A stretch of DNA of 64,000 nt from a phage. The notes below the pieces were generated by a model. That model made no database searches, was not told the DNA's origin, and saw only the letters and a program-made list of their open reading frames with translations. Positions 16,869 through 62,630 of this stretch are shown piece after piece. The stretch lies in sequence record PZ386957.1; one strand, 5' to 3'. The translations under genes and the position numbers were made by a program. How positions within the stretch are numbered: the first letter of the stretch is position 1; the number at the start of each line of letters is the position of its first letter.

Positions 16869-17162
16869 TTAACCATGAATCTTGTTTTTGACTACAAAGG
16901 ATCGGAACTCATCAAAGCCACCAATATAATCACCATCATAGAAAATCTGCGGCATGGTGGCAATAACTTCTACCCCTGCGCGATCCTGAATATCGGCAAT
17001 GATAGAATCAATCTTTACAGGGCGACCGTTTTCGTCCACACCATCATTAACCGGAATGTAGATGTAAGGGATCTTACGCGCTTCACAAAGGCGCTTTGCA
17101 TTCTGGCAATACTTACAGTTGTAACCTTCAAAACCAAAAATTTCTACCATGTTATACCTCAA
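16869..17162 (-). CDS. nrdC: Thioredoxin/glutaredoxin NrdC
   Basis: CKYCQNAKRL active site and MPQIF..IGGFD, matching T4 NrdC pattern. Confidence 0.85.
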   Translation of the reverse strand: MRYNMVEIFGFEGYNCKYCQNAKRLCEARKIPYIYIPVNDGVDENGRPVKIDSIIADIQDRAGVEVIATMPQIFYDGDYIGGFDEFRSFVVKNKIHG

Positions 17163-17971
17163 TCTACGTTAGTTACATAAACTTCTTGCGTATCAGAAGA
17201 CTTGCCACCTGAACGATCTAGGCAATAGGTCTTATTCAACAGGACGCAGTTTAAATCATTCCGCTTGATAAAATCAAGCAAATGGTTGTTAACTTTCCCT
17301 TTGTGGTGAGTAACATTGCTTAATCCAAACTTAGTACCGCTAGACATTAATGATTCTATCCACATGTAGAATTTAATCTCTTCTTCTTCACTCCAGAACT
17401 TATTATATTCTGCCGACGTGATCCAATATGGCGGGTCCAAATAAACGAAATCACCGGGCAAGATCTCGATCTCGTCATAACGACCAGACGTAAAATTGAT
17501 TCGACCGTCTTTGTTTTCTTCTTTAAAATTCAGGACACGCTCTACCGCGTTTTCGTTAAAAGTCCGGCGACCAAAATTAGCATTAAATTCGCCCTTTCGG
17601 TTATGGCGGTTAATGTTGCTAAAACTATGCTGAATCAGAACAAACAGAGATAGCGGATCTGGATTCTCGTTATACTTCTTGCGGAATGCCATATAAGAAT
17701 CTTTATCATCACGAGACAAACCATTCTCGGCAATAATCCGCTTGATCGTAGAAACCGGATCAGGGCACTCGTCAATCGCTTTGTAAGCATCAATTAAGCG
17801 GTGATCATAGTCATTAGCCAGAACATCCCCTTCGACGTACAGAGACACGCTCAAACCGCCACAAAAGGCATCGACAAAGCGGTTATAGTGCTTAGGGAAA
17901 TACTTACTAACACCTGGCAATAACTTTTCCTTATTGCCAGTATAGGGAATTAAACCTAATGCTTTCTTCAT
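17159..17971 (-). CDS. dam: DNA adenine methyltransferase Dam (alpha-class N6-adenine MTase)
   Basis: 270 aa; N-terminal FCGGLSV SAM motif, C-terminal DPPY catalytic motif, YNKFWSEEEE; closely matches T4 Dam. Confidence 0.9.
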   Translation of the reverse strand: MKKALGLIPYTGNKEKLLPGVSKYFPKHYNRFVDAFCGGLSVSLYVEGDVLANDYDHRLIDAYKAIDECPDPVSTIKRIIAENGLSRDDKDSYMAFRKKYNENPDPLSLFVLIQHSFSNINRHNRKGEFNANFGRRTFNENAVERVLNFKEENKDGRINFTSGRYDEIEILPGDFVYLDPPYWITSAEYNKFWSEEEEIKFYMWIESLMSSGTKFGLSNVTHHKGKVNNHLLDFIKRNDLNCVLLNKTYCLDRSGGKSSDTQEVYVTNVD

Positions 17972-36806: not shown

Positions 36807-36992
36807 TTAGAAATATGCAATATAGTTTGCCAGTCCTACAGAGTCATCATTCGGCATTGCTTTTACTGCCAGTTCAAATCCTGCTTCAACTTTCTGTTTA
36901 GCGGATTCTTCGTTATAACCCCAGATCACCAGAATAGCTACTACGTTTTCTTTGCTTACTGCTTTCAGTGCTTTAGTGATGCGACGTGCCAT
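36807..36992 (-). CDS. Hypothetical protein
   Basis: 61-aa ORF after promoter/leader 37039-37068. Confidence 0.45.
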   Translation of the reverse strand: MARRITKALKAVSKENVVAILVIWGYNEESAKQKVEAGFELAVKAMPNDDSVGLANYIAYF

Positions 36993-51700: not shown

Positions 51701-51803
51701 ATCGTTCTCTATGTTCCGTGAACTGGTAGATAAGCGACTAAAAGATAATGTAGGGAATCCGCGAGATCCGAAGAATCCGACACAGAGGAAAGTTAATGGC
51801 TAA
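48714..51803 (+). CDS. 7: Baseplate wedge protein gp7
   Basis: 1029 aa (T4 gp7 is 1032 aa); conserved order. Confidence 0.85.
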   Translation: MIKAPSVTSLTIEKLSANQAYITWDDVGENFFYFVELAETRTQDGEEIPVEELTWVNLGYTADNNWFEDKNLFPEYFYKFRVAVAAEGFEQSKWIETEEFQTFATNAYNFSMMREFNLANEFVKQKFTLDNRDYIKFNTDLIQASLMKEDFIFSPEYANITNIADKIIVDENFHEIQDHIEKVCTDINRTMLAEMNGVLYLFERFQPIVKVSNDKGQTWKAYKAFNDRVGNPVSRTCVYQSKTTTYVLGYDRIFYGRQASDTRWSADDVRFSDDTITFAKIGDENDLGFDVEVFGVFARLTGDTTKYAEAMACNDAYLWVGAKDIIRRIRLTNTPVDTVQGSPTFGEKIFDPDVIRVTGNDKAVIQKMDVVDGQLLVFVTGEVKQRYQDPTKPENVIPSEDAGVYLMVEDGLSFIRVFGNTPEEREYIQHGFSNMSTNGDEAFISHYNHHFGAILPDPETAAKYDGLSAAVKYSQEPTYLTDKKIHQTTFRASYDDLRMWQLGPQSYYNEADYTWMRRNGVRVWITNDNRPLVVYPEVVYTQEVDPTGIADENRINKEVYDKGTVTCYLNNVKFEGFKQYASGVMFHKNTGEIIGFYQFNYRVRDQVGVYWKPTNVAFIAELQNQVREVPWVPVHYERELDPDLRPLLNKMSPDSFLLDNDGFRKFSEYYLQFLSDGSGTYYNKLKNLIKNKYPREQDAYEYLWSEMNKRNIYADKNKRDAVVRFFESRKSDFYSTKGVEASYKFLFKLLYNEDVEIEVESQAGLEYDIVVSSTNIDEDIVGRTIYTPTGRANVTYLEREYEGGRLRWRITIHNLIGRFEEGQEIKSEKTGFEGMILVGVRGKELLSSSIDYINRSRSQYTMKIKSALPVSRYANDVMRFVHPVGFGFIGVTLLTMFINSGLSLKHTETIINTLKNYKFDSGLPSVYPDRVADLDVDGNIKKDPLTGKSLYLDAPNAGQDFPVPASYDKENSELFYGRKASERRFAMSPLFDQSAVSFSMFRELVDKRLKDNVGNPRDPKNPTQRKVNG

Positions 51804-52791
51804 TGAAAATAGTGTGATCTATCGCTCAATCATTACTAGCAAATTCAGGACAGAAAAACTTCTGAATTTCTATAATTCAGTGGGTGATGCATCCAATCAA
51901 ATTACAATCTATGGAACGTTCGGACGTTCTACGCCGTGGTCGGAAAACGAAAAAGAGGTGGGCTTCGCGCCCCCTTTCCCAACTGATTCAACGGCTGGTG
52001 TTGTTGACATGTGGTCACATATGATGGGTGTGGTTAAAATTAATAAATCTCTTCTTGATGCGGTTATCCCTCGTAAAGATTGGGGAGATACCGGACAAGA
52101 TAACCCGCGCACATTCTTTATCAATGATATTGTGGTAGTAAACTCAGCGCCATATAACCGTACAGATGTTGGTAGCGGTTGGATGGTTTATCGTGTGACC
52201 GATGTTCCTGATCGCGGTTACTGCTCGATTTCAAGCATTGACGCTAAAGTAGAGTGTTTGAAGCTGGGCGGAAAGTGGACACCTACCCATGAATCAATTG
52301 CGCCACCTGTAGGAAAGGGAGATTCTATTGATATGGGTGATGGATATCGTTGGGAATATCTGTACACAATTCCGCCTGATGCGGCGATCAACCGTTGCAC
52401 CAATGAGCATATTGTTGTACCGTTCCCTGATGAACTGCGACAAGATCCGGCGCGTTGGGGCTATGACAATGTGATCACCTGGTATAATGACTATAATCTG
52501 CTTTATCGGCTGAAAGTAGTAACTTTGCGTTTTCAGGCTTATATGGACTCTGCGCAATTCCCAACTTCCGCGTTAGTTGGTAACACTGGTTTCCGTCAGT
52601 TAAGCATTATCCTTAACCCATTGGAAAAGAAAGCGCGACCTAGTGATCCAGATGTTAAAGCTGTTAAAGATAAGTACCGTCCGCAAGACTTAGAGCCACA
52701 CTCAGGCGAAATGATCTACATGGAAAACCGACAACCTATCGTTCGTTCACTCGATCAAACAGAACTTGTTTCTGTATTGTTTGAGTTCTAA
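51796..52791 (+). CDS. 8: Baseplate wedge protein gp8
   Basis: 331 aa (T4 gp8 is 334 aa); conserved order. Confidence 0.85.
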   Translation: MANENSVIYRSIITSKFRTEKLLNFYNSVGDASNQITIYGTFGRSTPWSENEKEVGFAPPFPTDSTAGVVDMWSHMMGVVKINKSLLDAVIPRKDWGDTGQDNPRTFFINDIVVVNSAPYNRTDVGSGWMVYRVTDVPDRGYCSISSIDAKVECLKLGGKWTPTHESIAPPVGKGDSIDMGDGYRWEYLYTIPPDAAINRCTNEHIVVPFPDELRQDPARWGYDNVITWYNDYNLLYRLKVVTLRFQAYMDSAQFPTSALVGNTGFRQLSIILNPLEKKARPSDPDVKAVKDKYRPQDLEPHSGEMIYMENRQPIVRSLDQTELVSVLFEF

Positions 52792-52803
52792 GTATATGAT
52801 TTT

Positions 52804-52838
52804 AAAAGCCAATTCGTAAGAGTTGGCTTTTTCTATTT
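52804..52838 (+). terminator. Intrinsic terminator after gene 8
   Basis: GCCAA...TTGGC hairpin then TTTTTCTATTTTG. Confidence 0.6.
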
Positions 52839-52844
52839 TGGGTG

Positions 52845-52872
52845 TTGACAATCTTATCTGGCAAGGTATAAT
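52845..52872 (+). promoter_or_regulatory. Consensus sigma70 promoter TTGACA-16-TATAAT driving the methyltransferase cassette
   Basis: Perfect hexamers between the gp8 terminator and the 52902 ATG; RBS GGAGG. Confidence 0.7.
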
Positions 52873-52901
52873 GCTAGCATCTAAACAACGGAGGATAAAT
52901 T

Positions 52902-53159
52902 ATGGCACGTCGTAAATTTACAGATAATTGTGAAGCAATTCAGGTATCCCCTTGTGGTTGGGAGGTGATCGCGAACGGTGAAAAGATCGGAGAGATCATC
53001 GATCATACTCATTCATCACTAGCCGATTACACCGATGAACTATGGGAGGGTATTAATTGCGCTAACGTAACCAAACGATTCAAGACTATTGATGAAGCTA
53101 TACATTTTGTGTATAATCCAACTTTCGGTATGTGGAGTGATAGAAAATGGCACGCGTAA
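52902..53159 (+). CDS. Hypothetical protein (cassette gene 1, MAR start)
   Basis: 85 aa; first gene after promoter 52845-52872; overlaps next gene. Confidence 0.55.
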   Translation: MARRKFTDNCEAIQVSPCGWEVIANGEKIGEIIDHTHSSLADYTDELWEGINCANVTKRFKTIDEAIHFVYNPTFGMWSDRKWHA

Positions 53160-53476
53160 ATATTAAACTGCATTACACAATGAGTAAACCAAAACATCCA
53201 ATGCATAAAGTGTTTTGGGGCTTGCATCTTCAAGAAAAATGGCATGATAACTATTGGTTTTGTGACCATGATAAGAAGTGGCATTCTCAAGATGAAGTTA
53301 ATGCGATGATGGAACAGGGTATCAAATTTAATTACTCTAATTATGACCATAACATTACTTGTATTCGAAAATTGAAACGGTTTATTCGAAAGAATCCGCA
53401 ATTTAAAAACTTTGTGTTCTTTATGTCTCATGTTTATTTGGGGCATAGCGTTACCATCACTGCAAAGGTTAAATAA
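53147..53476 (+). CDS. Hypothetical protein (cassette gene 2, His/Trp-rich)
   Basis: 109 aa; coupled to flanking genes. Confidence 0.55.
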   Translation: MARVNIKLHYTMSKPKHPMHKVFWGLHLQEKWHDNYWFCDHDKKWHSQDEVNAMMEQGIKFNYSNYDHNITCIRKLKRFIRKNPQFKNFVFFMSHVYLGHSVTITAKVK

Positions 53477-54315
53477 TGGCACGACTTTCTAAACAAGAAC
53501 AAAAATTACACGACCGAGCAATGGAGTTGATCAATTCAGATCGTCAATTGACATATGAAGAAAAAGAATTTTGCTATAACAACTATCAGGGCGATGGTCT
53601 AGGCGGTTCAGGTGCATTCTTTACACCAGAAGGGCTTGCCTGGGATTTTACCATTGATGCACATTGTACAGGAAAGGTATTAGATCTTTGTGCTGGGATC
53701 GGTCGATTGTCTTTCTGTATGTTACATCGTTGCAAACCAGAAAAGATCGTATGCGTCGAACTCAATCCAGAATTTGCGCGGATCGGTAAACGACTATTAC
53801 CGGAAGCAGAATGGATCACAAGCGATGTATTCGAATTCGAATCAAGTGAAAAGTTTGATGTTGTGATCAGCAATCCACCTTTCGGAAAAATCAATACAAC
53901 CGACACAAAGGATGTATTCGAATACACTGGCGGTGAGTTTGAATTTAAGGTTATGACATTAGGCCAGAAGTTTGCCGATGTAGGTTATTTTATTGTTCCT
54001 GCTGGTTCCGCTGGTTTTGCCTATTCCGGTCGGCCTTATTATGATGGTACAGTAAAATCTAATAAATACCTAAAGTGGAGTAAGCAAACTGGTTTAGTGA
54101 CTTATGCCGGATGTGGGATTGATACTTCAATATATCGTGACGAATGGCATAGCACAAATGTACTAACGGAAGTCGTCGAAGTCAGATATTACGAAAAAGA
54201 AGCCGTAGAAGCAACTAAATCACAACCTAACGAACAAATAGAAGAAAGTAAGGCAATCACCTTACCTGATACAGAGAACGCGTCAGTGACGCTCTCAGAC
54301 TTGTTTGACATTTAA
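53476..54315 (+). CDS. Gamma-class SAM-dependent methyltransferase (probable N6-adenine DNA MTase)
   Basis: 279 aa; motif X GAFFTPEGLA, motif I VLDLCAGIGRLS, motif IV ISNPPFG in gamma order; terminator at 54322-54347. Confidence 0.75.
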   Translation: MARLSKQEQKLHDRAMELINSDRQLTYEEKEFCYNNYQGDGLGGSGAFFTPEGLAWDFTIDAHCTGKVLDLCAGIGRLSFCMLHRCKPEKIVCVELNPEFARIGKRLLPEAEWITSDVFEFESSEKFDVVISNPPFGKINTTDTKDVFEYTGGEFEFKVMTLGQKFADVGYFIVPAGSAGFAYSGRPYYDGTVKSNKYLKWSKQTGLVTYAGCGIDTSIYRDEWHSTNVLTEVVEVRYYEKEAVEATKSQPNEQIEESKAITLPDTENASVTLSDLFDI

Positions 54316-54321
54316 TATTGA

Positions 54322-54347
54322 TAGCCGTCCTTGTGGGCGGCTTTTTT
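54322..54347 (+). terminator. Intrinsic terminator after the methyltransferase gene
   Basis: AGCCGTCC-TTGT-GGGCGGCT then TTTTTTG. Confidence 0.6.
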
Positions 54348-54355: not shown

Positions 54356-54391
54356 TTTATAAATAACATATCATAACAAGAGGATTTAATA

Positions 54392-55246
54392 ATGGCACAG
54401 ATTCCAAAGAAAAGAATATCGACCGGTATTATCGGAAATCCATCAACGGGTGATATTCTGTACGATGGCGGTATTAAAATAAATGATAACTTTGATTCAA
54501 TTTATGATGCATTTGCCGATCAACGTTTTAATGATATCGACAACGGCGTAGGTAGAATGGTTATTCACGCTACAGGATATTATCAGAAACATACACGACA
54601 AAGTTATGCAGGGTCGGCAGTAGAGATTGGTAGTTTACATGATATTGATACTACTCAAGGCGCATTAGTAGTTATTCTCCCGAAAGCTAAGGTTGGCGAA
54701 GGTGTTGTTTTCATAAATAGTAACGGTAGCTTTTCTACAACCACACCACTAAACATTCGAGCACAAGCAGGTGATGCTATTGTTGGTTATTCTGGCGATG
54801 CAGCTATTACCCAACCTTACAGCAAAGTTACGGTATGGTGTACGGCAGTTGAAGGTAACAGAATGACGTGGCGCGTTGGTATTGAAAGTATGTTCACCGA
54901 CACAACTACACCAGTAGATAAAACGGTTAACGTAACTGGCGTGGCTACCAACGTAGCAATTGCTTCAAAGACAGAATACAACACAATTAAACTTTTGACA
55001 ACCGCTACAAATACGTCTGGCACTAAAATGCGGTCCAGCGAAACGCTGTTACTAATTGACGCGAAAGCAGGACAAGTTTATGCCACAGAATATGGCGTAC
55101 TACAGAAAACCGAAGATGAACTATACACGGTTCGTTATTTTATCGGTTCCGGTGATAAGGTATATGCAGAATATAAAGCCGTAGGTGAAAACATTCGATT
55201 AGCAATTAAGGCTACGGACACAGTTAAAATCGGGGTTGCTACATGA
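54392..55246 (+). CDS. 9: Baseplate wedge/tail-fibre socket protein gp9
   Basis: 284 aa (T4 gp9 is 288 aa); TATAAATA late promoter at 54348-54355. Confidence 0.8.
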   Translation: MAQIPKKRISTGIIGNPSTGDILYDGGIKINDNFDSIYDAFADQRFNDIDNGVGRMVIHATGYYQKHTRQSYAGSAVEIGSLHDIDTTQGALVVILPKAKVGEGVVFINSNGSFSTTTPLNIRAQAGDAIVGYSGDAAITQPYSKVTVWCTAVEGNRMTWRVGIESMFTDTTTPVDKTVNVTGVATNVAIASKTEYNTIKLLTTATNTSGTKMRSSETLLLIDAKAGQVYATEYGVLQKTEDELYTVRYFIGSGDKVYAEYKAVGENIRLAIKATDTVKIGVAT

Positions 55247-61889: not shown

Positions 61890-62630
61890 ATGTTCAATAA
61901 TACTCTCTTTGCCCGTTTAGAATCCCAAAAGGACTACGAGCATACACGACAAACAGAGATTCTCAATCCCTACGTAAACTTCAATCGACATACTAATACC
62001 CAGACATTAGCCGATGTGATGGTCGCTGAATCTATTCAGATGCGCGGGGTAGAATTATATTATATTCCTCGTGAATTTGTCAAGCCCGATATGATCTTTG
62101 GTGAGGATGTTCAAAGCAAATTTACTAAAGCATGGAAATTTGCTGCATATATCAATTCATTTGATGGATATGAAGGGGCGGGTAATTTCTTCCAATCTTT
62201 CGGTTATACTGCAAACGACGAATTAACTTTTACGGTTAACCCCAACCTATTCAAACATCAAGTAGATGGTCAAGAGCCGAAAGCTGGTGACTTGATTTAT
62301 ATACCAATGAGCAATGATCTCTTTGAAATCAATTACTTAGAGCCGTTCCAGCCGTTTTTTCAGAACGGAAAGAACGCCATGCGTAAAATTATTGCAGAGA
62401 AATTTGTGTATAGCGGTGAAGAACTACGACCAGAATTACAGCGTAATGATGGAATTAATATCGACGAGTTCGCGGATCTGGACCTTGCACCAATCACTAA
62501 TCTGGATGGATTGACAGACATTAATCTTGACCAATATAAAGAAGATAAGCAATTCAGAAGCGAAGGACAGGATTTTATTCAACCGTTCGATCCGATTAAT
62601 GGTGTCGGTTCTCCTTTTGCTGATTTTTGA
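61890..62630 (+). CDS. 14: Neck protein gp14
   Basis: 246 aa (T4 gp14 is 256 aa). Confidence 0.8.

What the first reader, a model, noticed from the sequence alone, without database searches (positions are those of the whole stretch)
52804..54347. Self-contained methyltransferase cassette (promoter, two unknown genes, gamma-class MTase, terminator) inserted between baseplate genes 8 and 9
In T4 gene 8 is followed by gene 9. Here a terminator, a perfect TTGACA-16-TATAAT promoter, three translationally coupled genes all starting MAR- (85 aa, 109 aa, 279 aa) and a second terminator sit between them. The last gene has motif X (FFTP), motif I (DLCAGIGRL) and motif IV (NPPFG) in gamma-class order, unlike the alpha-class Dam at 17159-17971. 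A host-type promoter inside a late structural operon suggests early expression, for example a protective DNA modification module with two uncharacterised partners. NPPF also occurs in rRNA and protein MTases, so the substrate is not certain.
Basis: partly seen in the sequence, partly recalled or inferred. Interest (0 to 1): 0.8.

Follow-up and report, generated by a model that had tools for sequence, protein, structure and literature searches.

The report
Early methyltransferase cassette with clamp-binding tail
A three-gene, early-promoter insert between two baseplate genes of an RB49-like phage encodes a DNA-type methyltransferase that ends in the same short peptide as the phage DNA polymerase's sliding-clamp anchor, so it probably rides the replication clamp to methylate newly made phage DNA.

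Summary
Between baseplate genes 8 and 9 of a Krischvirus (RB49-like) genome lie a stem-loop, a perfect sigma-70 promoter, three overlapping genes (85, 109 and 279 aa), a second terminator and a late promoter for gene 9. This layout is already known. It occurs in all 59 Krischvirus records, is annotated in GEC-3S, and matches the "PeSL + ORFan" cassettes described for RB49 and phi1.

The two small genes are orphans. They also occur without the methyltransferase in rV5-like phages, so they are not its conserved partners.

The new point concerns the methyltransferase. Its core has the motif order X, I, IV (NPPF). After a variable acidic linker it ends in TLSDLFDI. The Krischvirus DNA polymerase ends in SLTDLFDI, which is the gp45 clamp-binding tail.

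Relatives in RB43- and KP15-like phages carry similar "LF" tails. Of 78 relatives on viral contigs, 31 end in the bacterial beta-clamp motif (QLSLF, QLDLF and similar), as does a Pseudomonas megaplasmid copy. Only 4 of 1329 neighbouring ORFs do. Prophage-end copies have no tail.

Best reading: an early-expressed orphan DNA adenine methyltransferase tethered to the replicative sliding clamp. No binding, activity or target site was tested.

The parts
51796..52791 (+). Gene 8, baseplate wedge subunit (left flank of the insertion)
   Evidence: Pfam Phage-Gp8 E 1.3e-141 and phrog_977.
52804..52831 (+). Stem-loop terminator followed by a U-tract. It ends late transcripts from genes 6-8 and forms the stem-loop half of a PeSL-type element.
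   Evidence: 12-bp stem, -15.6 kcal/mol, z -4.6. Invariant stem in six Krischviruses. Annotated as a terminator in GEC-3S.
52845..52872 (+). Sigma-70-type early promoter: TTGACA (52845-52850), 16-nt spacer, TATAAT (52867-52872). The inferred transcription start is near 52879.
   Evidence: 12/12 match. Both hexamers are invariant in relatives. It is the only strong + strand site in the late region up to about 62 kb. The PeSL concept comes from PMC2839356.
52902..53159 (+). ORF1, 85 aa, an orphan (phrog_16603), preceded by GGAGG at 52890-52894
   Evidence: Found only in Krischvirus and 3 Vequintavirus records. dN/dS 0.10-0.25.
53147..53476 (+). ORF2, 109 aa, an orphan (phrog_12630). It overlaps ORF1 by 13 nt and the methyltransferase start by 1 nt.
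   Evidence: Found only in Krischvirus and Vequintavirus. The exhaustive HMMER search found nothing further. Two alleles exist within Krischvirus, at about 96% and about 72% identity.
53476..54189 (+). Methyltransferase catalytic core (residues 1-238). Motif X FFTP is at 53617-53628, motif I DLCAGIGRL at 53683-53709 and motif IV NPPFG at 53872-53886.
   Evidence: phrog_3820 E 1e-116. Pfam MTS scores 38.2 bits (cut-off 23) and Eco57I 27.1 bits (cut-off 25.3). PADLOC mad2 and Type II methyltransferase models cover residues 44-141. The motifs are invariant in 24 homologs. dN/dS 0.04.
54190..54288 (+). Acidic, low-complexity linker (residues 239-271), variable among Krischviruses
   Evidence: 64% of linker columns are invariant, against 93% in the core and 100% in the tail. 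Chromosomal prophage homologs lack the linker.
54289..54315 (+). C-terminal peptide TLSDLFDI plus stop codon. Proposed gp45 sliding-clamp-binding tail.
   Evidence: Krischvirus gp43 ends in ASLTDLFDI. That tail aligns with the RB69 polymerase tail ASLFDMFDF. In RB49 plus the window, only gp43 and this protein end in DLFDI. The tail is invariant in 7 Krischvirus sequences.
54323..54342 (+). Intrinsic terminator that ends the cassette transcript
   Evidence: 8-bp GC-rich stem followed by U6, -15.0 kcal/mol, z -4.4. Annotated in GEC-3S.
54358..54365 (+). T4-type late promoter TATAAATA that restarts late transcription for gene 9
   Evidence: One of only two exact + strand matches in the window. 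T4 has a terminator plus TATAAATA in its own 63-bp gap between genes 8 and 9.
54392..55246 (+). Gene 9, baseplate wedge tail-fibre connector (right flank)
   Evidence: Pfam T4_gp9_10_N E 8e-40 and phrog_967.

Best explanation
The region is an early-gene cassette of the PeSL type (a stem-loop plus a strong sigma-70 promoter). It was inserted into the terminator and late-promoter gap between baseplate genes 8 and 9 of a Krischvirus.

Proposed mechanism:
1. Host RNA polymerase starts near 52879 soon after infection. It makes a tricistronic mRNA of about 1.45 kb that stops at 54323-54342. (Inferred from sequence.)
2. The three ORFs are translated by coupling. (Inferred from their overlaps.)
3. ORF1 and ORF2 are independent orphan early proteins of unknown role. 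They are not subunits of the enzyme. (Shown by distribution.)
4. The third product is an orphan, SAM-dependent amino-methyltransferase with gamma-type motif order. It most likely makes N6-methyladenine in DNA. (Inferred.)
5. Its catalytic core is joined by a disordered linker of about 33 residues to the peptide TLSDLFDI. This peptide copies the C-terminal peptide that T4-family DNA polymerases use to dock into the hydrophobic pocket of the gp45 sliding clamp. (The sequence identity is shown; binding is inferred.)
6. The enzyme is thereby held on clamps loaded at replication forks, or left behind on new DNA. It methylates progeny phage DNA during or just after synthesis.
7. The likely benefit is protection of unmodified-cytosine Krischvirus DNA from restriction in the next host. 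(Inferred.)
For: **Cassette anatomy and conservation**
- The anatomy is confirmed. The cassette is present in all 59 Krischvirus records, and its regulatory motifs are invariant.
- PeSL elements have documented promoter and terminator activity, and a few are known in the virion module (PMC2839356).

**Methyltransferase core**
- The motifs run X, I, IV and are invariant.
- DNA-methyltransferase profiles are the ones that cover the motif X region: PADLOC mad2 at 1e-16, Type II methyltransferase models, and Pfam Eco57I above its cut-off.
- In RB43-, KP15- and JC221-type phages the homolog sits between helicase gp41 and primase gp61.
- In a 66.7-kb viral contig it lies between a helicase, two other DNA methyltransferases and a primase/polymerase.

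**Tail in T4-type phages**
- The window methyltransferase ends in TLSDLFDI. RB49 gp43 and the most divergent Krischvirus gp43 both end in SLTDLFDI. All 59 records conserve that polymerase 3' end at 94.7% or better.
- That polymerase tail aligns with the RB69 polymerase tail, which has been crystallised on gp45 (PMC6212786).
- No other protein in RB49 plus the window shares the ending.
- The tail is invariant while the linker varies.
- KP15: methyltransferase SDLFTFTIE, polymerase SLNDLFGDW. Lw1 and GAP161: methyltransferase QNLFTFTIE, polymerase SLNTLFGDxW. JC221: methyltransferase SELFTFRIE, polymerase SLNDLFGDW.

**Tail in replicons that use the host clamp**
- The Pseudomonas megaplasmid homolog ends in AQLSLFDAA.
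- Of 78 homologs on viral contigs, 31 have Qxx[LIM]F within the last 14 residues. Only 4 of 1329 other ORFs in the same loci do.

**Precedent**
- The gp45-binding loop of T4 ligase was found by the same kind of similarity to the gp43 tail, and was then confirmed (PMC6212786).
Against: - No binding, methylation or transcription experiment exists for this protein.
- The nearest solved structures by sequence are RNA methyltransferases (a METTL5-like archaeal protein and RsmC). TaqI and type I HsdM match only weakly.
- The Pfam N6_Mtase score is below its cut-off.
- No separate target-recognition domain is visible in the 238-residue core.
- Not all relatives carry a tail. Aeromonas phages 65 and AS-sw, phiM19 and about 26 prophage-end copies lack one.
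- In RB43-type phages the match between methyltransferase and polymerase tails is limited to a [DNT]-L-F core.
- The polymerase tail was read from relatives, because gene 43 lies outside the window.
- No usable structure model could be obtained (pLDDT 33.6).
- The + strand orientation means that read-through from late promoters could also express the cassette late.
Confidence: 0.6

Rival explanations
1. The enzyme is an RNA or protein methyltransferase of the MTS family (like RsmC, PrmC or METTL5) that modifies host translation components. The cassette would then be a host-takeover module rather than a DNA-modification module.
For: The best sequence matches among solved structures are RsmC (E 4e-4) and the METTL5-like PH1948. 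The top NCBIfam hits are PrmC and RsmC. Several depositors annotate it as a release-factor glutamine methyltransferase. No target-recognition domain is evident.
Against: All of those hits fall far below the family cut-offs (37 against 199 bits; 29 against 295 bits), and they cover only the generic Rossmann segment. Only DNA-methyltransferase models align the FFTP motif X region. Clamp-binding tails of two different clamp types would make no sense for an RNA or protein substrate. Relatives lie among replication genes and other DNA methyltransferases.
Confidence: 0.1
2. It is a DNA methyltransferase, but the C-terminal peptide is not a clamp tether. The resemblance to the polymerase tail is coincidental, or the tail serves another purpose such as a degron or a packaging signal.
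For: The motif is short, and several phage relatives work without any tail. 27 of the 31 beta-type tails end in -AA, which resembles ClpX-recognised C-termini.
Against: The last five residues are identical, and 6 of 8 residues are identical, to the cognate gp43 tail. No other protein in the proteome shares this ending. The tail is strictly conserved next to a variable linker. The tail type switches with the clamp type of the replicon, and the bacterial consensus QL[SD]LF is enriched about 130-fold over neighbouring ORFs.
Confidence: 0.15
3. The three genes form one functional system. ORF1 and/or ORF2 would act as specificity, regulatory or inhibitor subunits of the methyltransferase.
For: The genes show tight translational coupling and sit in one operon between one promoter and one terminator. 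All 59 Krischvirus records keep the three genes together. In several other lineages a small ORF also overlaps the methyltransferase start.
Against: ORF1 and ORF2 occur in Vequintavirus FV3 without the methyltransferase. Methyltransferase homologs in more than 200 other phages and plasmids lack them. The upstream ORFs of different lineages are unrelated even by profile-profile comparison, with probability below 1%. Synonymous divergence differs about 20-fold between ORF1/2 and the methyltransferase against the same relative.
Confidence: 0.1
4. The tail does bind the clamp, but its main effect is regulatory. It would compete with polymerase, gp33 or gp55 for gp45 sites, for example to time replication against late transcription. 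Methylation would be secondary.
For: gp45 is also the late-transcription activator, bound by the C-terminal tails of gp33 and gp55 (PMC9690074). The RB49 gp55 tail is [10 protein letters not shown].
Against: The catalytic motifs are invariant and the core evolves at dN/dS 0.04. The same tail logic recurs on plasmids and temperate phages that have no gp45-type transcription control.
Confidence: 0.05

Closest known systems
PeSL (promoter-early stem-loop) + ORFan cassettes of RB49 and phi1 (Arbiol et al. 2010, PMC2839356)
   Same: A stem-loop terminator next to a strong sigma-70-like promoter, with a Shine-Dalgarno sequence and ATG at its 3' end, placed upstream of orphan genes. It occurs in the same phage genus. 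The paper notes a few such elements inside the virion module, next to genes of unknown function.
   Different: The searched text of the paper does not mention this locus or the methyltransferase. Here the cassette carries three genes and is closed by a separate terminator rather than by a second PeSL.
[quoted passage not shown]
   Same: A short hydrophobic L/F motif, placed at the extreme C-terminus after a flexible segment. The last five residues are identical to those of the cognate Krischvirus polymerase. The ligase motif was discovered by the same kind of similarity to gp43.
   Different: The carrier is a methyltransferase, which is not among the gp45 clients named in the papers read here (polymerase, gp33, gp55, ligase; RNase H proposed). 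Binding has not been measured.
DNMT1-PCNA (eukaryotic maintenance methyltransferase with a PIP box)
   Same: A DNA methyltransferase recruited to the replicative sliding clamp through a short linear motif, so that newly made DNA is methylated (summarised in PMC9690074).
   Different: An unrelated enzyme class (C5-cytosine against an NPPF amino-methyltransferase), an unrelated clamp motif, and a viral or plasmid setting. The proposed purpose here is self-protection, not epigenetic inheritance.
Bacterial beta-clamp-binding motif QL[SD]LF (Pol II, Pol IV, UmuC, Hda, MutS and others; established knowledge)
   Same: 31 of 78 viral-contig relatives and the Pseudomonas megaplasmid copy end in QLSLF, QLDLF, QLDIF, QASLF or QADLF after a Pro/Ala-rich linker.
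   Different: The window protein itself carries the T4-type tail, not the bacterial pentapeptide. No paper in the searched library links a methyltransferase to this motif.
Gamma-class N6-adenine DNA methyltransferases (M.TaqI, Eco57I family, type I HsdM)
   Same: The motifs run X (FxTP), I, IV (NPPF). The Pfam Eco57I model scores above its cut-off, and there are weak matches to TaqI and HsdM.
   Different: The protein is only 238 core residues long, with no recognisable separate target-recognition domain and no partner S subunit or nuclease. Overall sequence similarity is marginal.
Phage orphan methyltransferases such as T4 Dam
   Same: Early-expressed and phage-encoded, with no cognate nuclease. 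T4 dam also sits in the replication gene cluster, between genes 56 and 61.
   Different: A different class: Dam is D12/alpha (PF02086). The Dam of RB49 has no clamp-type tail.

Membership tests
Gamma-class amino (N6-adenine) DNA methyltransferase | Linear motif order X, then I, then IV | tested here: met
   FFTP at residues 48-51, CAGIG at 72-76 and NPPFG at 133-137. All are invariant in 24 homologs.
Gamma-class amino (N6-adenine) DNA methyltransferase | Catalytic (D/N)PP(Y/F/W) motif IV and a glycine-rich SAM-binding motif I | tested here: met
   NPPF and LCAGIG are invariant.
Gamma-class amino (N6-adenine) DNA methyltransferase | Score above the curated cut-off of a DNA-methyltransferase family model | tested here: inconclusive
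   Pfam Eco57I scores 27.1 against a cut-off of 25.3 (pass). N6_Mtase scores 16.7 against 20.4 (fail). The generic MTS model scores 38.2 against 23 (pass).
Gamma-class amino (N6-adenine) DNA methyltransferase | Target-recognition domain C-terminal to the catalytic domain | tested here: inconclusive
   No separate domain is visible. Residues 150-238 are conserved but match no profile. The structure model failed.
Gamma-class amino (N6-adenine) DNA methyltransferase | Transfers a methyl group to adenine N6 in DNA | not testable with these tools
   Needs enzymology or methylome sequencing.
PeSL regulatory cassette (RB49/phi1) | A strong sigma-70-like promoter with an adjacent stem-loop, in an intergenic position, with a Shine-Dalgarno sequence and ATG of an ORFan at its 3' end | tested here: met
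   Stem-loop at 52804-52831, a 12/12 promoter at 52845-52872, GGAGG at 52890-52894 and ATG at 52902. One published PeSL subclass places the stem-loop upstream of the -35 hexamer.
PeSL regulatory cassette (RB49/phi1) | Promoter and terminator activity in vivo | not testable with these tools
   Shown in PMC2839356 only for other PeSLs.
gp45 sliding-clamp clients of T4-type phages | A short hydrophobic clamp-interaction peptide resembling the cognate gp43 C-terminus | tested here: met
   TLSDLFDI against SLTDLFDI. The ending is unique in the proteome scan. The gp43 tail is homologous to the RB69 clamp-bound peptide.
gp45 sliding-clamp clients of T4-type phages | The motif is conserved while the tether is flexible and variable | tested here: met
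   The tail is 100% invariant, the linker 64% and the core 93% across 7 Krischvirus sequences.
gp45 sliding-clamp clients of T4-type phages | Physical binding to gp45 | not testable with these tools
   No complex prediction or assay was available.
Beta-clamp-binding (QL[SD]LF) proteins | A terminal pentapeptide matching Qxx[LIM]F | tested here: not met
   The window protein lacks it and has the T4-type tail instead. The motif is present in 31 of 78 viral-contig relatives and in the megaplasmid copy.
rRNA or protein MTS-family methyltransferases (RsmC, PrmC) | Score reaching the NCBIfam equivalog cut-off | tested here: not met
   PrmC scores 37.3 against 199.1. RsmC scores 28.9 against 295.
Restriction-modification system | A cognate nuclease or specificity gene adjacent to the methyltransferase | tested here: not met
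   The neighbours are two orphans and baseplate genes. ORF1 and ORF2 give no PADLOC, Pfam or NCBIfam hit.

The most novel reading that the evidence does not exclude
phrog_3820 is a widespread family of orphan DNA methyltransferases carried by mobile elements, and these enzymes travel on the replicative sliding clamp. Each lineage has acquired the tail that fits its replicon's clamp. T4-type phages use a copy of the gp43 tail for gp45. Temperate phages and megaplasmids use QL[SD]LF for the host beta clamp. This would be the first prokaryotic or viral counterpart of DNMT1-PCNA. The clamp would supply DNA affinity and processivity to a minimal enzyme that has no recognition domain, allowing fast and possibly low-specificity methylation of nascent DNA as an anti-restriction strategy.
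Probability: 0.5. Interest if true: 0.75.

Novelty: new variant of a known kind. Interest (0 to 1): 0.6.

Why it matters
The cassette layout itself is ordinary for RB49-like phages and is already annotated. The value lies in the methyltransferase tail.

- If the tail binds the clamp, methylation of phage and plasmid DNA is coupled physically to replication. I found no report of this for any bacterial or phage methyltransferase in the searched literature.
- It would explain how a 238-residue enzyme without a recognition domain could modify a 165-kb genome within one infection cycle.
- It would add a new client class to gp45 and to the beta clamp.
- It would give a simple sequence rule (linker plus clamp motif) for predicting DNA as the substrate of ambiguous NPPF methyltransferases.
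- For phage therapy, where Krischviruses are in use, it bears on host range against restriction systems.
- The hypothesis can be tested directly with peptides, purified clamps and methylome sequencing.

Tried and rejected
**Structure**
- AlphaFold on the methyltransferase alone gave pLDDT 33.6. On ORF2 alone it gave pLDDT 50.5. Both are too poor for a fold search.

**Genomic context of bacterial homologs**
Context was taken from IMG/VR loci and plasmid records instead.

**Function of the small ORFs**
- Pfam, NCBIfam and PADLOC gave no hit for ORF1 or ORF2.
- Word-indexed searches and the exhaustive HMMER search found only close relatives, plus one hit at E 5.6e-4.

**A conserved upstream partner gene**
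- The upstream ORFs of 62 loci fall into unrelated clusters, with hhalign probabilities below 1%. The idea was rejected.

**Recent gene conversion as the origin of the tail**
- The last five codons of RB49 gene 43 and of the methyltransferase gene differ at 1 of 15 nt, but upstream codons differ. The result is inconclusive.

**Literature**
- The paper on an unknown DNA modification in KP15 and KP27 (PMC5219037) does not consider this gene.
- The Durham Collection paper (PMC13390438) reports unexplained cytosine modification in one Krischvirus but gives no adenine-methylation data.
- No paper links a phage or bacterial methyltransferase to a clamp-binding motif.

**PeSL homology**
- The PeSL of a second MARR-starting gene (start at 36992, - strand) shares only 16 nt around the start codon with the ORF1 PeSL.
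Full report
**1. What the window is**

The region matches 59 phage records at 80-95% DNA identity. All of them are Krischvirus (RB49-like T4-type coliphages), and the best hit is UPWr_E1 at 93%. The flanking ORFs are T4 gp8 (Pfam Phage-Gp8, E 1e-141) and gp9.

**2.

- The stem-loop at 52804-52831 folds at -15.6 kcal/mol with z -4.6.
- The promoter TTGACA-16-TATAAT at 52845-52872 matches 12 of 12 positions.
- ORF1 (52902-53159), ORF2 (53147-53476) and the 279-aa gene (53476-54315) overlap by 13 nt and by 1 nt.
- The second terminator at 54323-54342 folds at -15.0 kcal/mol with z -4.4.
- Strong sigma-70 sites (11/12 or better) are abundant on the - strand of the early region (22 sites). On the + strand of the late region this is the only one before 62 kb.
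- The stem-loop, both hexamers, the Shine-Dalgarno sequence and the ATG are invariant in six Krischviruses that differ elsewhere.
- All three ORFs evolve under purifying selection: dN/dS is 0.04 for the methyltransferase, 0.10-0.25 for ORF1 and 0.10-0.5 for ORF2.
- Genes 8 and 9 are adjacent in T4, a Slopekvirus and a Tulanevirus. The cassette is therefore a genus-specific insertion.
- T4's own 63-bp gap between genes 8 and 9 already holds a terminator followed by TATAAATA. The window has the same pair (terminator 54323-54342, TATAAATA at 54358). The cassette therefore landed in an existing terminator and late-promoter gap and left late control of gene 9 intact.

**3. The layout is already known**

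- GEC-3S (HE978309) annotates the promoter, both terminators and the three ORFs.
- RB49 lists them as ORF140w-143w, with a note of similarity to an rRNA methyltransferase.
- Nolan et al. 2006 list RB49ORF143w as a methyltransferase-small-domain ORF (PMC1524935).
- Arbiol et al. 2010 (PMC2839356) described about 50 "PeSL" elements per genome in RB49 and phi1. Each is a stem-loop plus a strong sigma-70-like early promoter, ending in a Shine-Dalgarno sequence and an ATG.
- They showed promoter and terminator activity for representative elements. They proposed that the elements mobilise ORFan cassettes, and noted that a few lie in the virion module next to genes of unknown function.
- The 5' element here fits that description, in the subclass with the stem-loop upstream of the -35 hexamer.
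- Early expression is therefore a reasonable inference, but it has not been measured for this promoter.

**4. The two small genes are not partners of the enzyme**

- ORF1 and ORF2 have no Pfam, NCBIfam or PADLOC match.
- In a 5.8-billion-protein database ORF1 has one cluster of relatives and ORF2 has five.
- The exhaustive HMMER search for ORF2 adds only one marginal hit.
- In the phage collection both occur only in Krischvirus and in some rV5-like Vequintaviruses. In FV3 they sit together among small early genes, with no methyltransferase present.
- The methyltransferase, in contrast, occurs in 290 phage records and 187 plasmid records without them.
- The genes immediately upstream of the methyltransferase in 62 loci fall into unrelated clusters.
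- Inside the cassette, synonymous divergence from one relative (L020) is 0.02-0.04 for ORF1 and ORF2 but 0.59 for the methyltransferase. This indicates separate recombination histories.
- ORF2 also has two alleles within the genus, at about 96% and about 72% identity.
- I treat both genes as independent early orphans. Their role is unknown; host takeover or anti-defence is only a guess.

**5. The methyltransferase core**

- It belongs to phrog_3820 (E 1e-116).
- The motifs FFTP, CAGIG and NPPFG are invariant in 24 homologs and run in the gamma-type order X, I, IV.
- Pfam MTS and Eco57I score above their cut-offs, and N6_Mtase scores below its cut-off.
- PADLOC DNA-methyltransferase models (mad2 at 1e-16; Type II) align residues 44-141, including motif X.
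- RNA and protein methyltransferase models (PrmC, RsmC) match only the generic Rossmann part and fall far below their cut-offs.
- Among solved structures, only weak matches appear: a METTL5-like archaeal protein, RsmC, TaqI and type I HsdM.

**6. The tail**

Homologs in enterobacterial chromosomes (54-61% identity, about 238 aa) stop right after the last core strand. Phage copies continue with an acidic or proline-rich linker and a short hydrophobic ending.

*T4-type phages*
- The window protein ends in ...NASVTLSDLFDI.
- The RB49 DNA polymerase gp43 ends in ...EKVASLTDLFDI.
- The most divergent Krischvirus polymerase 3' end gives the same tail.
- That tail aligns with RB69 gp43 ...KKASLFDMFDF. 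T4 gp43 ends in EKASLDFLFG.
- These are the peptides that bind the hydrophobic pocket of the gp45 clamp. T4 ligase was shown to bind gp45 after its loop was noticed to resemble the gp43 tail (PMC6212786).
- gp33 and gp55 use C-terminal LDFL-type tails (PMC9690074). RB49 gp55 ends in [10 protein letters not shown].
- In a scan of RB49 plus the window, only gp43 and this protein end in DLFDI.
- Across seven Krischvirus sequences the eight tail residues are invariant. Only 64% of linker columns are invariant.
- Other T4-type genera show parallel pairs:

| Phage | Methyltransferase tail | Polymerase tail |
|---|---|---|
| KP15 | SDLFTFTIE | SLNDLFGDW |
| Lw1 and GAP161 | QNLFTFTIE | SLNTLFGDxW |
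| JC221 | SELFTFRIE | SLNDLFGDW |

- In those phages the gene lies between helicase gp41 and primase gp61.

*Replicons that depend on the host clamp*
- The tail changes type in these replicons. A Pseudomonas megaplasmid copy has a long Pro/Ala linker and ends in ...FAQLSLFDAA.
- Among 78 homologs on IMG/VR viral contigs, 31 carry Qxx[LIM]F (QLSLF, QLDLF, QLDIF, QASLF, QADLF and similar) in the last 14 residues. Only 4 of 1329 other ORFs from the same loci do.
- Of the remaining homologs, 12 carry T4-type tails and 26 have no tail.
- QL[SD]LF is the established beta-clamp-binding consensus.
- One such gene sits between a helicase, two other DNA methyltransferases and a primase/polymerase.
- Tail-less copies sit at prophage ends, next to integrase and tail-fibre genes.
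- The match between tail type and clamp type across unrelated replicons is the strongest argument. It supports both clamp binding by the tail and DNA as the substrate.

**7. Proposed mechanism**

The cassette and its signals are shown. So are the identity of the tail with the polymerase tail and the family-wide pattern. The remaining steps are inferred:
- transcription early by host polymerase;
- docking of the tail on gp45 clamps at or behind forks, where a trimeric clamp could hold polymerase and methyltransferase together;
- N6-adenine methylation of nascent DNA;
- protection from restriction in the next host.

Target sequence and specificity are unknown. The lack of a recognition domain leaves open a short or relaxed specificity.

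**8. Weak points**

- There are no experiments and no structure model.
- Gene 43 lies outside the window, so the polymerase tail comes from relatives.
- In RB43-type phages the similarity between tails is limited to a short core.
- Several phage relatives lack a tail.
- Late read-through expression cannot be excluded.

**9. Novelty**

The cassette is a known kind, and a known instance of it. I found no report of a clamp-binding tail on this family, or on any bacterial or phage methyltransferase, in the searched library. The nearest analogue is DNMT1-PCNA. I rate it as a new variant of a known kind, with interest 0.6.

Noticed in passing
window 62054-62083 (- strand) and 62511-62540 (+ strand): A perfect TTGACA-18-TATAAT on the - strand and an 11/12 match on the + strand lie inside a late-region ORF (61890-62630). 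These are the only other strong sigma-70-like sites in the structural block.
   Followed up: no
window 53147-53476 (ORF2): ORF2 has two alleles within Krischvirus, at about 96% and about 72% identity, while ORF1 and the methyltransferase stay above 90%. Against L020, synonymous divergence is 0.02-0.04 for ORF1 and ORF2 but 0.59 for the methyltransferase. The cassette is therefore a recombination mosaic.
   Followed up: partly
L002 1702-1948 (RB49 AY343333 ORF140w/141w): In the RB49 GenBank record the ORF1 homolog is split into two short ORFs (a frameshift or a sequencing error). A resequenced RB49 record and the other Krischviruses have it intact.
   Followed up: no
window 52902, 53147, 53476 (+ strand) and 36992 (- strand): Four of about 105 roughly called genes start with Met-Ala-Arg (ATGGCACG), and three of them are the cassette genes. 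ORF1 and a 61-aa gene starting at 36992 (- strand) share 16 identical nt around the start codon (AAATTATGGCACGTCG), but their upstream regions are otherwise unrelated.
   Followed up: partly
L062-L099 (IMG/VR loci), methyltransferase C-termini: 27 of the 31 beta-clamp-type tails end in -AA, and 12 methyltransferases have ANDN in the linker. This resembles the ssrA tag (AANDENYALAA) and suggests a possible ClpXP degron next to the clamp motif.
   Followed up: no
L075 and L079, proteins of 224 and 223 aa; the L075 one lies directly upstream of the methyltransferase: These proteins also end in a clamp-motif-like RQGELFSGEAA and RQGEMFA, so other clamp clients may exist in these phages.
   Followed up: no
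L009 15890-16606 (RB49p189, outside the window): A third RB49 gene is annotated as a DNA methyltransferase (238 aa, contains FAFPPC). It has no Pfam match, and the tblastn search with the cassette methyltransferase found no second matching place in RB49.
   Followed up: partly
L016 401-1570 (Dickeya jumbo phage JA29): Here the homolog is fused to an extra C-terminal domain of about 150 aa (389 aa in total) and is followed by another putative methyltransferase gene.
   Followed up: no
Literature (PMC13390438), Krischvirus phages SAP and TB34: Two Krischviruses that are 99.96% identical are reported to differ in cytosine modification, with no known pathway genes. Adenine methylation was not examined there.
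   Followed up: no
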